64,000 bases of DNA from Hydrolagus affinis (taxonomy: Eukaryota), in the NCBI GenBank assembly GCA_012026655.1, contig JAAILG010000013.1, positions 1 to 64,000 of the forward strand. Reading direction: 5' to 3'. Position numbers and translations under genes: made by a program. This document shows, piece after piece, positions 7,963-29,749 of the stretch (its first letter is position 1; each line of letters opens with the position of its first letter). The notes beneath the pieces are model-generated. The model searched no databases. It saw only the letters and a list, made by a program, of their open reading frames with translations, and was not told the origin of the DNA.

Positions 7963-9425
7963 AAAGAATACAGCAGAATACACTCGTTGAGCACCTTTCA
8001 TGTAGGATAATGTCTCAAAGTGCTTTGGCTTGGATTATGGATTACGAATGGAAAGAGGAAGTACAGGATGTTGACTGAGGGCAGTGTCAGAGCAAGAAGC
8101 TTTTTTAAAGAGGATACTTACTGAAGGTGATGTAGAGAGGGTGTCGGTCAAAGGCAATTTGGGAAAAAGTGCCAAAGAGCAAAAGTACAGTATGTACTCT
8201 CAATGAAAGCCAAATAAATATATTGAAACACGCCTTAGGAAGAAATCAACACACATTTTAGCTAAAGAGGAAGTAGAATCAGAAATTTCCATGAGATTGC
8301 ATTAGTGTTCTGAATTCTCCGGATAACAGGAGTCATTGTACTGTATCATTAAATTGTTGTTGAAAACTGTGTCTTGCCGTATATGGTAAGGTGCTCAATA
8401 TCAGGAAGGAGTGGTTTCAGGCAAAGCTAAGCTTTCAGTTGAGAGCAATATCTCCCTTACGTTTTTGGCAGCTAAATTTAGACTCCATTTGGTCTCCAAA
8501 TTCTATAAACTGTATTGAAGTGAAAATGTGCAGTTCAGCTAATCTGCACACTGAGCTGTGATCCTGTTTACTTGCGAAACGGGGGTGGGTGGTGGGGGTG
8601 GTGGTGGGGGGTGGGTTGTGGAGGAAATGAAAGGAAATCAAGCAAATGGGAATCTGAAAAAACGAATCAGAAACTGCTGGAAATTCACAGCATCCGAAAG
8701 AGAAAGAGATGGGTCGATCACACCGAAAAACCTTAGCCAGCTTTTCTTTCAGATTATGAAATGGCCAAGGATTCTGAGCACGATGTTACAATCTTCCTGT
8801 TTTTTGTGGTGGGGGCGGGGGGGAAAGTGGAGTGCCATTCATTGTACGGATTGAGACTCCCTTCACTATCTTCCCGGTCACCAATCTGCCCTCTAGCGAA
8901 TTCCTCCTCCCATTGAGCATTCACAGTATTGGATGATATTTCTGTGTGTATGTGCATGTATGTGCATGTGTATAATATATCAACAGCTTATAAAGGTGTT
9001 AGTGTCTTGCTAATAGAAGGAGGTTGTCCTATTTTTACTTCCTGTTTCAGTGTCCTTGGCATCTTGATTCCATTAGAGTGTTGTAATGTAATCAGTGTAG
9101 TGATTCATATGCAGATCGTGGTTATAATGTGCTATTCGACAGAACTAGTTTAGGGTGTCATTGCCAGTACACAGTACTGTTGTGAGGGTGTGACAGAGCA
9201 TGTCTAACCAGTATTGTGCCTTTTTATTTTAAAAGGTATCTCTTACCTATTCAGGACACATTGTGGTGGATACACAGCTCTGAAACAGTTTCGCCATCCC
9301 GAAACACTGATGGACACTGACTATTAGAGCCAGGATTTACAATCGGTGAGTCTGGATTACAAGGTTTATATCTCTAGTGCAGAAATTTTCACTCACTCAT
9401 TTCTTTGTCTTATGGGGTTTACTTC

Positions 9426-22699: not shown

Positions 22700-22831
22700 T
22701 CGACCTTGACCGAGCTTTTGGTCACCTTCCTGCCCCTGCCCCTGGCTTGGTCCCGGGATCCGCTACTGTGAAGCGCTCTGAGACGCCGTCCGGCGTGGAG
22801 GGCGCTATATAAATCGAAGTTGTTGTTGTTG
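22700..22831 (+). mobile_element. L2-clade LINE 3' end, second subfamily
   Basis: CTTGACCGAGCTTTTGGTCACCTTCCT encodes LDRAFGHLP, as in the 41650 element. Ends GTGAAGCGCTCTGAGACGCCGTCCGGCGTGGAGGGCGCTATATAAATCGAAG(TTG)n. Confidence 0.8.
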
Positions 22832-23464
22832 CCCACGGGGCGTACTCGCTATACGTGTCACCTCAACACCTGTATTTTATTTGCTCTTTTGTCCGGACCC
22901 CGTCACCTCTCGTATCAAACTGCAGTTTCACTTCAAAACAGTCAGAAACCGAATCCTCCCAATTCCAGTAAGTCTTGATTAAATTACTGGTGAGGTAGTA
23001 ATAATCCTGTGATTGGTTCTGATGGAAGTTATGAAATCCCTGGTGTAAGCAAAGCTTATTTGCTGCCCAATTAGGCAATTAGGTCATTGCAATGCCCGAT
23101 AGTTGCCACTGGGGGAAAGGATATTGAAACGACAATGGAATTTGGTTGATCGGTTTATTACAGCACCACCAAGTGGTCATATCGTGGGGAGGGGGTTGGG
23201 TGGTGGAGGCGGGGGGCGCGGAGAACTGCAGGTACAGTAGTTTAGGTTGACCGTCTGTGAGAGCATCACACTGATGTCCTTTGACGGAGGAGGTGGAGGG
23301 GGAGGGGAGAGAGAGAAAGAGAGAGAAAGAAAGGAGAGGAACAAAAACAAATAGTTTTATTTTGCATTTCAGCTTTTCATTTCCACAATGTCCGGTGCAA
23401 ATGTTTAAATCTTTCTTTCTTTTTTTCTCTCCTACTCCGTCTTCTTCAAATGTTGTGTTTTCAG

Positions 23465-25325
23465 CCGTCGAATCTCCCGCAAATAACCGAGAGAAGGAGG
23501 GGGGGGGGGGACGGGGACGGGACGGGACCCGTTTCGACGCCGGAAACTCAAGACCTCAGTAATGTGATGAGAATACAATACCAAGACGACCAGAGAACTC
23601 CGTCGGAAGAAGAGCTTATGCCTTGGTTCGCCGAGCGATCCGCCCATGAATTCGTGATGTCGAAATCCAACGACGGTGCCATGACGCAAACGCCCGCCGG
23701 CGGAGAGCGGGACGCGCCGGGCGCGACGTTTGCCGATCTCCCCGCCGGGCCGAGCGCCGCCGAGCACCGCTGCGCCGTTTGCGGCGAGTGCTTCCCCTGC
23801 GGCCGGGGTCTGGCGCAGCACATGCGCATGCACGCCCGGGGCAAGCCGCGCAAATGCCCCTTCTGCGACTACAGGTCCTCTCAGAAGGGGAACCTGAAGA
23901 TGCACGTACGGAAGCACAAGCTGGCCGACTTCCAACCGGAGAGGGACGCGGGCAGGCGCCCGCCGGACCCCGGCTCGTCCGCAGACGCCGGAGCCAGCCA
24001 GGCCGCCGCCGTCGCCCTCAATGGCGTTGGCGTCACGCAGAAGGGGTTCCAGGGCGAGGGCTTTGTGCCGGACCAAGGCCGCGGGCTTCTGCCCTGTATG
24101 TTTTGTCACAAAAGCTTCCGGCAGCCGGGCGAGCTTCATCACCACGTGCTGGTCCAGCACCGGCCCACGCTGTGCGAGCCGGCCGTCCTGCGGGTCGAGG
24201 AGGGTCTCCTGGGTCCCGGCGAGGATGGCTCGGCCGTCGGCTCGCCAGAGCGGGAGGAGAACAACGGCGAGGACAAGGACGGGGAGCTCAGCTGCAAAGT
24301 CTGTGGCCAGGCCTGCGAGAGCTCCCCGGGCCTGGAGACCCACCTGCGCAAACACAAGGACTCGTTCACCTACGGCTGCAGCGCGTGCGGCCGGCGCTTC
24401 AAGGAGCCCTGGTTCCTGAAGAACCACATGCGGACGCACTCGGCCAGGGCCAGAGGCAGGTCGCAGCAGGACGCCGAGGGCCCCGCCACCATCAACGACG
24501 TGGTGCAGGAGCCGGCCCCCGCCAACGGCGCCTCGCCGTACAAAATGTGCATGGTCTGCGGCTTCCTCTTCCCCACCAAGGAGAGCCTGAAGGAGCACGT
24601 CAAGGTTCACAACAAGGAGGCGGAGGAGGAGGAGGACGACACCCCGCGCGGGGACGAGGCCGCGGTGTCGCAGTGGGCGTTCCTGCAGATCCTGAACCTG
24701 AACCCCCTCGCCTCGCAACGCGGCAGCCGGCCGGCCAAGCTGGGCAAGTGGATCGCCGAGCTGGACCCGTTCAACACCTACCAAGCCTGGCAGCTGGCCA
24801 CCAAGGGCAAAGTGGCCGTCGGCCGAGAGAACGTGAAGGATCCGGTGCAGGTGGCAAACTCCGAGAACGAGGAGGAGTCGTCCGACAAGGAGGATCAGCC
24901 CGGCGACCACTGGGTCATGGAGAAGGGCAGCCACGTGGCTGAGAACCTGGAAAAGCCCAAGTCCGTGAAAAGCAGCGGTTTAGGCGGGGGGATGGCGAAC
25001 GGAGGACCGTCTGCCTGCGTATCCGACGCGGACGTCGAGCAGAAACTCTCTCAGAGTAAACCCAAGCCAACAAACTGTGCCACATGCGGGAGGATATTCC
25101 GAACCTACCACCAGTTGGTGCTGCACTCCCGGGTGCACAGGAAAGGCAGGAAGAGCGTTGAGGGTCCCCCGACTCCGATTGAGGGCGGCACAGGATTAAA
25201 CGGTGAAACTCAACCCTCGGACCCTATCACTGCAACCGAAGAGCGCAGTCCGGGGGCCGACAAGCCCGAAGAGGGTTCCGAAGAAGGCTCAGAAGATGGA
25301 GTACTGGGAGAATCGCTTTGTTCAG
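23465..25325 (+). CDS. znf217: Zinc finger protein 217, large first coding exon (7 C2H2 fingers)
   Basis: ORF 23450-25393 trimmed to acceptor tgttttcAG|CCG (23464/5) and donor TCAG|GTAGG (25325/6, phase 1). ZNF217 signatures: CMFC..HVLVQHRPTLCEPAVLRVE, CGRRFKEPWFLKNHMRTH, YKMCMVCGFLF, LDPFNTYQAWQLATKGKVA, KPTNCATCGRIFRTYHQLVLHSRVH, EEGSEEGSEDG. Start uncertain: in-exon ATGs at 23567 and 23618, or the upstream exon. Confidence 0.95.
23640..24960. other. CpG/GC-rich segment inside the znf217 exon
   Basis: Third codon positions almost all G/C and CpG abundant, against AT-rich flanks (visual estimate). Confidence 0.75.
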
Positions 25326-27713: not shown

Positions 27714-27746
27714 ATCGAACTGAGGACGGATCTGAACGAGCGAGAA
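27714..27746 (+). CDS. znf217: znf217 small internal exon, 5' part only (rest lost in the assembly gap)
   Basis: Pyrimidine tract then cattgtAG|AT CGA ACT GAG GAC GGA TCT GAA CGA GCG AGA. A phase-1 join gives ..SLCS-D-RTEDGSERAR, positionally equivalent to the linker before the human [22 protein letters not shown] finger. N-run begins at 27747. Confidence 0.8.
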
Positions 27747-27846
27747 NNNNNNNNNNNNNNNNNNNNNNNNNNNNNNNNNNNNNNNNNNNNNNNNNNNNNN
27801 NNNNNNNNNNNNNNNNNNNNNNNNNNNNNNNNNNNNNNNNNNNNNN
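27747..27846. other. Assembly gap (100 N) truncating a znf217 exon
   Basis: N-run flanked by poly-C tracts. Confidence 1.
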
Positions 27847-28045: not shown

Positions 28046-29749
28046 GTGAGAAACCGCACCGCTGCCCCCTGTGTAACTACGCCGCAGCCCAGAAGACATC
28101 TCTTAAGTATCACTTGGAGCGACACCACAAGCCTGAACACAAGAAGGCTCCGGAGGAAAAGAGTGACTCTCTCAGTAAGAACCCGTCGACGTCCCCACCG
28201 CTAGATGCGGCACCGACGGGAGGCGACGAACCCGCGGAGTCAAAGAGGTTTTTCGCCGATTCTTTGAGCGCCGTCAAAGACTTCGAAACGGGAGCTGATC
28301 CTCTGAGGAAACACAAGCTCGCGCTTCACCCGTCCCGGCATCTTCTGTCCAACTCTGTGCTTCCCGGCGCCGGGGGAGAGTTCCCGGACCTCAGCGGGGA
28401 CGCCGGCTTTCACAGCTCCCACCGGATCTTCTACAACCCGTTGATACCTTTCACCGAGAGGTCGCGGGTCGAGAAGGTGGTGGCTGAGCTGCGGAGGAAC
28501 AACACTGACCTGAAGGCAGGCGTCGGTTCGGGTGATGTCAAGGCCTTGGACGACTCTTCGCTGACCGACGGCACGAGACAGAACCATGCTAACGGGGTCA
28601 CGGTGGAGCCAATGTCACTCAGTAACAAGTACAGTCTTAGTTTTGCAGAAGATATGGAGTGCTACTCTGATCCATCTCTATCCAATTTATTTGAAATACC
28701 CTTGAACCTCTGCACAAAACCTTATTTGCAAAGCTTGTGTAGTCTTCAGGGAAACGCATCTACCTCAGTTTCCAAGAGTGCCTTACCAAGCAGCACATGT
28801 CCCTTTTGTACCTATAGAACATTTTACCCCGAGGTCCTGGTCATGCACCAAAGGTTGGTACACAAGTATAATTCTGACCCCAGCCCATTAAATGGGGTCC
28901 GAGGTGCTGCTCTCAGTGGATTGGTTAAAGGCAGACGCACTGGATGCCCTCCTGCACTATTGGGTAAAGATGTTCCTTCCTTTCCTGCAACCAAAGAAAT
29001 GAACGCCAGGCTCTCGCGTCGGACCAAGTCACCACTACCAGCTGCCCCACCACATACCTCGAGTTTAGTGCACGGGAAAGTGAGACCATCATCACACCAG
29101 TCCCAGTGCAATAACCTTCCCTCTGCCTCAGGAACTAGATCTTCAGGTGAATTTAAACCATTCAAGCCATCACAAAATCCTAATGTTAATCTAGAAAATT
29201 ATGGACCCATGTACACCGAGTTCAGACCAGGGCTGGACATGGTTCAAATGCTGGAAAGAAGTGGACCTTCAGAAGGTGGTAACGGTAAGCGAAATCTGCC
29301 TGAGAAGTCTCGCATCAAGTTGGACAGTGAATCTGACCGGCCTGGAGGAGGACCCATGTTCAGATACGATGGCCCGTGGGTTCCTCCAAACATGGGCAAA
29401 GTATGTCTTACTAACACGTTTGAGAATCAGGGAGCCTTGGACTCGCACGAGCCAACAGCAAAACGAATGAAAGCAAACAACAATCCCTTAAAAAACGACC
29501 CAATTCTGTTCGGGGTGAGGAGGAATGTCCAAGGAAGAAATGGCAAACTTTTATCTCAGGATATCTCCCCTGTTCAGGCAAAAAACTCAGGGGTGTCCTC
29601 TAAGCAAGGACCATTTTTTGATTCGAATGGAGTCGATGGACATTGGAATGTATTAAATGTTTTGAAGTCCTACAATCCACAAAATTTGGCTTCGCTGTAC
29701 AGTACCTGTGGGCCCAGCCACTATAGAGATCCTAACATGGGTCAGGAAG
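28046..29749 (+). CDS. znf217: znf217 exon with two C2H2 fingers and CtBP-binding motifs
   Basis: Acceptor cctcAG|GT GAG AAA CCG gives GEKPHRCPLCNYAAAQKTSLKYHLERHH. Contains PLNLC (PxDLS-like), CPFCTYRTFYPEVLVMHQRLVH and RRTGCPPALLGKDVP. Donor GAAG|GTATGT at 29749/50, phase 1. Confidence 0.95.

What the first reader, a model, noticed from the sequence alone, without database searches (positions are those of the whole stretch)
23765..23920. ZNF217 with an extra N-terminal zinc-finger pair of ZNF536/516/219 type
Seen: two intact in-frame C2H2 fingers (CAVCGECFPCGRGLAQHMRMH-ARGKPRK-CPFCDYRSSQKGNLKMHVRKH) precede the CMFC..HRPTLCEP finger. Known: that finger is the first of eight in human ZNF217, while the paralogues ZNF536/ZNF516/ZNF219 begin with a pair ending CPYCDHRAxQKGNLKIH. 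Inference: this is a 10-finger ancestral-state ZNF217 (counting the finger lost in the gap). The first finger and the TGEKP linker (here ARGKP) are diverged, which may capture a DNA-binding module part-way to loss.
Basis: partly seen in the sequence, partly recalled or inferred. Interest (0 to 1): 0.7.

Follow-up and report, generated by a model that had tools for sequence, protein, structure and literature searches.

The report
Ancestral ten-finger ZNF217 in cartilaginous fish
This chimaera-like fish's copy of the cancer-linked gene regulator ZNF217 starts with two extra zinc fingers that its sister genes also carry, and the same fingers are damaged or missing from the database proteins of many other vertebrates, so the eight-finger human protein is likely a trimmed-down form of an older one.

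Summary
Confirmed. Two complete C2H2 fingers (23771-23833, 23855-23917) lie in frame in the first coding exon, after the first usable ATG (23567); RNA from a close relative covers them and fixes the upstream splice. A tree built without the pair places the protein in ZNF217 (100/100), sister to Callorhinchus. The pair is ancestral: ZNF516, ZNF536, coelacanth ZNF219 and hagfish/lamprey relatives carry it. It is not special to this genome. All 12 shark/ray ZNF217 clusters have the region: 5 intact, 7 with finger 2's first cysteine lost. Two caecilians and axolotl keep only finger 2; 148 of 151 bony-vertebrate proteins start downstream and lack it. A further dead finger is hidden in ZNF217's HRPTLCEP signature. 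The pair evolves much faster than in the paralogues but is still more conserved than its flanks, so 'relaxed' is shown and 'on its way out in this species' is not. It is likely a weak secondary DNA-contact module (untested). Nine fingers are seen; the tenth is inferred inside a gap. Ten paper searches found no account of this, nor did the scan's earlier notes. A real, modest evolutionary finding about a known gene.

The parts
9255..9345 (+). Upstream non-coding exon with a 5-codon in-frame uORF (ATG 9310) whose TAG closes the main frame; 3' end shown by spliced reads, 5' end inferred from an AG acceptor
   Evidence: 14 reads of run X3 leave the coding exon at 23464 with a loose end that matches 9315-9344 with 1 mismatch, 0 of 100 shuffles; GT donor at 9346
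23465..25325 (+). First coding exon of ZNF217; first in-frame ATG at 23567 (MRIQYQ...), the start shared with shark and ray ZNF217
   Evidence: acceptor and donor read from sequence; RNA depth from 23464 to 24380 in a close relative; conserved start
23771..23833 (+). Extra finger F1; four ligands intact; helix residues -1/+2/+3/+6 = C/R/G/Q, where 25 of 25 other family rows have F at -1
23834..23854 (+). Diverged linker ARGKP-RK (2 of 5 identical to TGEKP; aromatic residue before the Cys replaced by Arg)
23855..23917 (+). Extra finger F2; four ligands intact; helix QKGNLKMH, with -1/+2/+3 = Q/G/N as in all 13 paralogue and cyclostome rows
24095..24160 (+). CMFC finger (human ZF1 equivalent)
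24161..24235 (+). RPTLCEPAVLRVEEGLL...: likely relic of the family's fourth finger (first Cys removed with a 3-residue deletion, His ligands gone)
   Evidence: aligns to finger 4 of ZNF536/516/219/hagfish/lamprey, shuffle p 0-0.0025 in 6 of 6 window comparisons
24293..25138 (+). Four fingers equivalent to human ZF2-ZF5 (24293, 24377, 24548, 25076) and the family ELDPFNTYQAW motif
27714..27846 (+). Start of the exon that holds ZF6 in sharks; the rest lies in an assembly gap (27747-27846)
   Evidence: not found elsewhere in the genome with one query
28046..29749 (+). Third coding exon: ZF7 (28063), PLNLC motif (28699), ZF8 (28798), RRTGCP motif (28933)

Best explanation
The gene is the chimaera-type ZNF217 and still encodes the N-terminal zinc-finger pair that it inherited with ZNF516, ZNF536 and ZNF219; the pair likely works as a weak, secondary DNA-contact module that ZNF217 can do without. 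SHOWN: orthology, homology of the pair, an in-frame start upstream, transcription in a close relative, faster change than in the paralogues, and damage or absence in other lineages. INFERRED: after the gene duplications ZNF217 relied on its ZF6-7 pair for sequence-specific binding (invariant in 12 of 12 sharks and rays) and on ZF1-4 and the CtBP motifs for corepressor recruitment, so selection on the front pair relaxed. Finger 2 keeps Q(-1)/G(+2)/N(+3) and would, by the standard recognition code (my knowledge), read an A-rich triplet. The changed finger-1 helix and the non-canonical linker would lower affinity and specificity. In bony vertebrates a downstream Met (MPT[H/Q]P, in register with shark TGR-N) likely let the pair be skipped and then lost piecemeal: finger 1 first (axolotl, caecilians), then finger 2 (newts, amniotes, ray-finned fish, coelacanth, lungfish, frogs as annotated). 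In sharks and rays finger 2 lost its first Cys at least twice.
For: Core tree without the pair: ZNF217 clade 100/100, 21 of 21 rows; AU test rejects window+ZNF516 (p=1e-6) and window+ZNF536 (p=2e-45). Pair identity to the window: shark/ray ZNF217 26-32 of 51, ZNF516 26-30, ZNF536/219/cyclostome 25-26, ZF6-7-type pairs 17-21, unrelated pairs 21-23; the six ZNF217 pairs form one group, 90/95. Same-species differences in the pair, chimaera vs Chiloscyllium and Pristis: ZNF217 24 and 24 of 51, ZNF516 6 and 9, ZNF536 0 and 0; 75 of 75 ZNF536-core proteins carry the same pair, allowing only L/I at one site. The amphibian finger's best matches are family F2 fingers, and it sits 69 residues from the CMFC finger vs 69-73 in sharks; axolotl F1 relic in register, p about 0.001; axolotl start MPCYTEQ vs shark MPWFTDQ, p 0.002-0.011. 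Human ZNF219 is reported to bind DNA through its first three fingers (PMC3805895, passage citing its ref. 35). ZF6-7 = DNA and ZF1-4 = CoREST in human ZNF217 (PMC11905140, passages). Predicted model: two beta-beta-alpha units, pLDDT 76.
Against: No binding data exist for this pair. It is no more diverged from sharks (59-63%) than ZF1 (58-71%), which all lineages keep, so rate alone does not show dispensability. In five galeomorph sharks the F2 helix (QKANLKI) stays conserved after the Cys is gone, which fits a non-DNA role as well. Bony-vertebrate absence rests on annotated proteins, and gene models can miss the pair: 3 of 4 Callorhinchus models did. The amphibian extensions are predicted proteins, not shown to be translated. 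The MPT-start register was significant in only 3 of 6 comparisons. The structure search gave no hit at E<=0.001 and rmsd near 7.6 A.
Confidence: 0.62

Rival explanations
1. The pair is kept as a protein-binding or structural surface (for example an extension of the CoREST-binding N-terminal region), not as a DNA reader.
For: F1 has hydrophobic or small residues at the base-contact positions throughout the family (F/S/L-I-V). The linker has drifted in all 13 cartilaginous-fish ZNF217 rows listed. The F2 helix stays conserved in sharks that lost a Cys. The N-terminal fingers 1-9 of ZNF516 bind CoREST and CtBP (PMC5612949, passage).
Against: The architecture matches two-finger DNA readers; the top structural match is ZNF217 ZF6-7 on DNA (3uk3), although only at E=1.1e-3. 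The paralogues keep a near-invariant TGEKP linker. ZNF219's first three fingers are reported to bind DNA.
Confidence: 0.22
2. The pair is already functionless in this species and is decaying neutrally.
For: F1 has lost the otherwise invariant F(-1) and has two glycines at the helix start. The close relative differs at 3 amino-acid-changing and 1 silent site in the pair among the differences listed (10 further differences were not shown). The window has the longest ZNF217 branch in the pair tree (0.37).
Against: All 8 ligands and the frame are intact in the window and in Callorhinchus. F2 is 21 of 23 identical against 75 of 123 in the flanks (p=0.004). The pair is more conserved than its flanks against 5 of 6 elasmobranchs at p<0.05. 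F1 alone is not distinguishable from the flanks (17 of 23, p=0.35), so decay of F1 alone remains open.
Confidence: 0.12
3. The pair was gained in cartilaginous fish by copying from ZNF516/536 or by duplicating ZF6-7, or the gene is a ZNF516/536-type paralogue.
For: The window pair is as close to bony-fish and mammal ZNF516 (29-30 of 51) as to shark ZNF217; the 51-column tree is poorly resolved.
Against: Core tree and AU tests. The own genome has separate ZNF516 and ZNF536 genes. The ZNF217 pairs group together and apart from ZF6-7 pairs. Amphibian ZNF217 keeps F2 at the same spacing, which a gain in cartilaginous fish alone cannot explain.
Confidence: 0.04

Closest known systems
Human/mammalian ZNF217 (8 C2H2 fingers; ZF6-7 structure PDB 3UK3)
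   Same: Orthologue; same order of ZF1-5, 7 and 8, HRPTLCEP and ELDPF motifs, CtBP-type PLNLC and RRT motifs around ZF8
   Different: Longer N-terminus with two more intact fingers; starts at MRIQYQ rather than MPTQ; ZF6 not visible because of a gap
ZNF516, ZNF536, ZNF219 N-terminal finger pair
   Same: Same position at the front of the first coding region; F2 helix QKGNLK identical at -1, +2, +3
   Different: Near-invariant in those genes (0-9 of 51 differences between the same species) but 24 of 51 in ZNF217; TGEKP linker and F1 F(-1)/S(+2) lost in the window; the paralogues also keep the fourth finger that ZNF217 has as a relic
Shark, ray and Callorhinchus ZNF217 database proteins (e.g. XP_007883777.1)
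   Same: Same start, same pair region; 10 fingers where intact and complete
   Different: 7 of 12 shark/ray clusters lack F2's first Cys; the window's F1 helix and linker are the most changed; no paper found that describes any of this
Zebrafish ZNF219L (PMC3805895)
   Same: A family member reported to lack the second finger that human ZNF219 has, a parallel loss
   Different: Different paralogue; taken from passages of the paper, not tested here

Membership tests
ZNF217 orthologues | Core region (pair excluded) groups with ZNF217 | tested here: met
   100/100, sister to Callorhinchus; alternatives rejected
ZNF217 orthologues | CMFC..HRPTLCEP finger followed by ZF2-5, ZF7 and ZF8 in order | tested here: met
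ZNF217 orthologues | ZF6-7 DNA-binding pair | tested here: inconclusive
   ZF7 present; ZF6 exon starts at 27714 and enters a gap; not found elsewhere
ZNF217 orthologues | CtBP-binding PXDLS-like and RRT motifs beside ZF8 | tested here: met
   PLNLC at 28699, RRTGCP at 28933; position per PMC11905140; the motif consensus is from PMC5612949
ZNF217 orthologues | Convergent neighbour TSHZ2 (human synteny recalled) | tested here: inconclusive
   A Teashirt/tiptop-family frame lies on the minus strand about 115 kb downstream; which TSHZ was not determined, and ZNF516/536 also sit near TSHZ genes (recalled)
Eight-finger ZNF217 as described in human | Exactly eight fingers, the first being the CMFC finger | tested here: not met
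   Two more fingers upstream; human count from PMC9776013 and PMC11905140
ZNF516/536/219-type N-terminal pair | Two tandem fingers ahead of the CxFC finger, F2 helix QKGNLK | tested here: met
ZNF516/536/219-type N-terminal pair | F1 helix with F(-1) and S(+2) | tested here: not met
   C(-1), R(+2) in the window; Callorhinchus keeps F(-1)
Canonical tandem C2H2 DNA-binding pair | Four zinc ligands per finger with standard spacing | tested here: met
   predicted beta-beta-alpha units
Canonical tandem C2H2 DNA-binding pair | TGEKP linker and aromatic residue two before the Cys | tested here: not met
   ARGKP-RK
Canonical tandem C2H2 DNA-binding pair | Sequence-specific DNA binding | not testable with these tools
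   needs SELEX, EMSA or a binding array

The most novel reading that the evidence does not exclude
ZNF217 is a living series of zinc-finger loss. An ancestor with at least 11 fingers lost finger 4 by a 3-residue deletion (now the conserved HRPTLCEP signature, still in mammals). Galeomorph sharks repeated the same kind of deletion in finger 2. A new downstream start codon in the bony-vertebrate ancestor let the front pair be shed independently in five or more lineages. Chimaeras, basal sharks and skates would keep a second working DNA-reading module, so that their ZNF217 targets sites that the human oncoprotein no longer sees.
Probability: 0.35. Interest if true: 0.6.

Novelty: new variant of a known kind. 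Interest (0 to 1): 0.42.

Why it matters
It gives the domain history of a well-studied oncoprotein. The human eight-finger form is likely derived, and its closest paralogues differ from it mainly by the fingers that ZNF217 has shed. The graded natural series (intact, Cys-less F2, F2 only, relic, absent) is a ready set of variants for asking how a transcription factor loses a DNA-binding module and what the very conserved front pair of ZNF516/536/219 does. It also suggests that a conserved ZNF217 signature inside the CoREST-binding region is a dead finger put to other use. It is not a new mechanism or a new gene family.

Tried and rejected
1) A finger-2 relic in bird, mammal or snake N-terminal extensions: the owl stretch YIKTR looked like amphibian HVKTH but was not significant (371 of 500 shuffles as high; p 0.20-0.61); tarsier and two unnamed extensions also failed; the Spea extension passed only 1 of 3 pairwise tests. 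Not claimed. 2) The axolotl pre-F2 stretch did not pass the free HMM test (85 of 500); it passed only the position-anchored tests, which were chosen after looking. 3) I recalled the published ZNF217 exon-4-skipping isoform as the ZF6-less form; PMC8283766 (passages) shows it changes the C-terminus, so the link is dropped. 4) The AlphaFold model (3-row alignment, no zinc or DNA; pTM 0.42) says nothing on finger orientation; Foldseek gave no hit at E<=0.001. 5) No RNA holder was listed for this organism itself; inclusion of the ZF6 exon in RNA was not tested. 6) ZNF219 was not found in the own genome with two queries; absence is not shown. 7) dN/dS per finger and a search of vertebrate 5' UTRs could not be run: no other vertebrate DNA is held. 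8) The two primary ZNF217 structure papers were not held; nothing of them was read. 9) The scan's earlier notes held nothing on this gene. 10) Script errors were fixed.

Full report
OBSERVATION. The two fingers are in the sequence as described, at 23771-23833 and 23855-23917, in frame with the CMFC finger at 24095. The gene shows nine complete fingers. The exon that carries ZF6 in sharks begins at 27714 and runs into a 100-N gap; one search of the own genome did not find the rest. The count of ten is therefore nine seen plus one inferred; five shark/ray clusters with an intact pair have ten.

IS IT TRANSLATED? No RNA run of this organism was listed. Three RNA runs of one sample from a close relative were laid on 22800-24380. 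Run X3 covers the exon from 23464 to 24380 without a break (mean depth 4.7-12.6 in the four bins over the pair); X2 and X4 are thin. Fourteen reads leave the exon at 23464 with a tail that matches window 9315-9344 (1 mismatch; 0 of 100 shuffles), followed by a GT donor. In the joined 5' end the main frame is closed by a TAG in the upstream exon, and the first in-frame ATG after it is 23567; there is no in-frame ATG between 23920 and the CMFC finger. The relative has an 18-19 base deletion at 23505, upstream of that ATG, as fits untranslated sequence. The start MRIQYQ is shared with most shark and ray proteins. Translation itself is inferred, not measured.

WHICH GENE? The 120 best hits listed of 674 are named ZNF217 wherever they carry a gene name, with sharks and rays on top. 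A tree of 40 proteins built on the region after the pair gives a ZNF217 group of 21 of 21 rows at 100/100, with the window sister to Callorhinchus. On a 20-row subset, AU tests reject joining it to ZNF516 or ZNF536. The own genome holds separate ZNF516 and ZNF536 genes, each with the pair. A Teashirt-family gene faces it about 115 kb downstream; its subtype was not determined. The organism is chimaera-like by tree position only.

IS THE PAIR ANCESTRAL? Yes. Hagfish and lamprey family members, coelacanth ZNF219 and the ZNF516 and ZNF536 rows used all begin with the same pair. In a 51-column tree the six intact ZNF217 pairs form one group (90/95) apart from the ZF6-7-type pairs; the tree is otherwise poorly resolved.

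THE SERIES. Cartilaginous fish: 12 of 12 shark/ray clusters have the region. All eight ligands are kept in Heterodontus, Heptranchias, Pristiophorus, Narcine and a cluster holding three named skates, and in the Callorhinchus RefSeq model. F2's first Cys is gone in five galeomorph sharks (a 3-residue deletion), Pristis (Arg) and Mobula (His, which might still bind zinc): at least two events, using recalled shark phylogeny. Bony vertebrates: of 151 proteins with an MPT-type start (isoforms and cluster members counted, not species), 3 have a finger upstream: Rhinatrema, Geotrypetes and axolotl. That finger best matches family F2 and lies 69 residues before the CMFC finger, against 69-73 in sharks and 59 in the window. 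Axolotl also keeps the shark-type second start and an F1 relic with no ligands; these pass position-anchored shuffles (p 0.001-0.011) but not a free HMM test. An unnamed newt-cluster protein has a Cys-less F2 remnant (4 of 500 shuffles; p 0.001-0.018). Bichir, bowfin, teleost, coelacanth, lungfish, frog and amniote proteins start at MPT[H/Q]P or a variant, which aligns in register with shark TGR-NKANL (p<0.05 in 3 of 6 tests). Because amphibians keep F2, its absence elsewhere implies several separate losses, unless gene models missed it; 3 of 4 Callorhinchus models did miss it, one by reading F1 in the wrong frame. Human ZNF217 itself was not among my hits; its eight fingers are taken from passages of PMC9776013 and PMC11905140.

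AN OLDER LOSS. ZNF536, 516, 219 and the cyclostome proteins have a finger directly after the CxFC finger (KPYKCTLCEF...H). ZNF217 has RP---TLCEP there. For 7 ZNF217 proteins against 6 paralogues, 40 of 42 comparisons have shuffle p<0.05, and finger 4 scores at least as high as any other finger in 41 of 42 (one tie); the two weak cases are Rhinatrema against hagfish and lamprey. The gap to the next finger is 39-44 residues against 49-54 (81 in lamprey). The ZNF217 signature is thus likely a dead finger, lost by the same sort of deletion seen in galeomorph F2.

RATE. Between the same three species the pair differs at 17-24 of 51 sites in ZNF217, 4-9 in ZNF516 and 0 in ZNF536; in ZNF217 it changes faster than the middle fingers (p about 1e-4). 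ZF6 and ZF7 are invariant in 12 elasmobranchs. Against this, the pair is more conserved than its flanks (window vs Callorhinchus 41 of 51 against 75 of 123, p=0.014; F2 p=0.004; F1 p=0.35) and about as conserved as ZF1, which every lineage keeps. Relaxed but still constrained is the fair reading.

MECHANISM (inferred). Human ZNF217 binds DNA with ZF6-7, CoREST with ZF1-4 and CtBP through motifs by ZF8 (PMC11905140, passages). Human ZNF219 is reported to bind DNA also through its first three fingers (PMC3805895, passage citing another paper that I did not see). The front pair most likely is that second DNA contact, made optional in ZNF217. F2 keeps Q/G/N at the contact positions; F1 has changed them and the linker lacks the usual Thr, Glu and aromatic residue, which by general knowledge of C2H2 arrays weakens binding. 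A protein-binding role is the main rival and neutral decay the lesser one.

LITERATURE. Ten searches returned no paper on ZNF217 finger evolution in fish or amphibians; the library lacks most subscription papers. I read passages of PMC5612949, PMC11905140, PMC6348741, PMC3805895, PMC9776013, PMC8283766 and one reference line of PMC11761706; the others only as search listings. No supplements were opened.

VERDICT. Real and correctly identified; shared across cartilaginous fish; a new variant of a known gene with a well-graded loss series. Interest 0.42.

Noticed in passing
window 24161-24235: The HRPTLCEP signature of ZNF217 aligns with the fourth finger of ZNF536/516/219 and looks like a dead finger, kept in the jawed-vertebrate ZNF217 proteins examined, including mammals.
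   Followed up: yes
G000:C13 about 143000-146000 (L021, L022), minus strand: Teashirt/tiptop-family gene convergent with ZNF217; subtype not determined.
   Followed up: partly
window 27714-27846: The ZF6 exon is cut by a 100-N gap flanked by poly-C. All four Callorhinchus models also lack this exon, and 23 of 200 ZNF217 proteins retrieved (turtle, bird, caecilian, lemur, pig models included) join the flanking exons without ZF6; whether this is real splicing or model error is open.
   Followed up: partly
window 9310-9327 and 23562-23567: A 5-codon in-frame uORF in the upstream exon, and an ATG-TGA start-stop overlapping the main start codon.
   Followed up: partly
L002:1501-1665 (own ZNF516): Cartilaginous-fish ZNF516 finger 1 (FPFLSVLSVH) differs from bony ZNF516 (FPFQSSLSQH), while shark ZNF217 finger 1 (FPFSSLLAQH) resembles the bony form; the core tree also separates 217+516 from 536+219+cyclostomes.
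   Followed up: partly
protein P0004 (Pristis ZNF217): The database model has a tandem duplicate of about 70 residues including the CMFC finger; assembly or model artefact not excluded.
   Followed up: no
window 22800-22835: A high-copy repeat end: thousands of reads and contigs pile up here with unrelated flanks.
   Followed up: no
G000, whole genome: No ZNF219-like fourth paralogue was found with two queries; absence not shown.
   Followed up: partly
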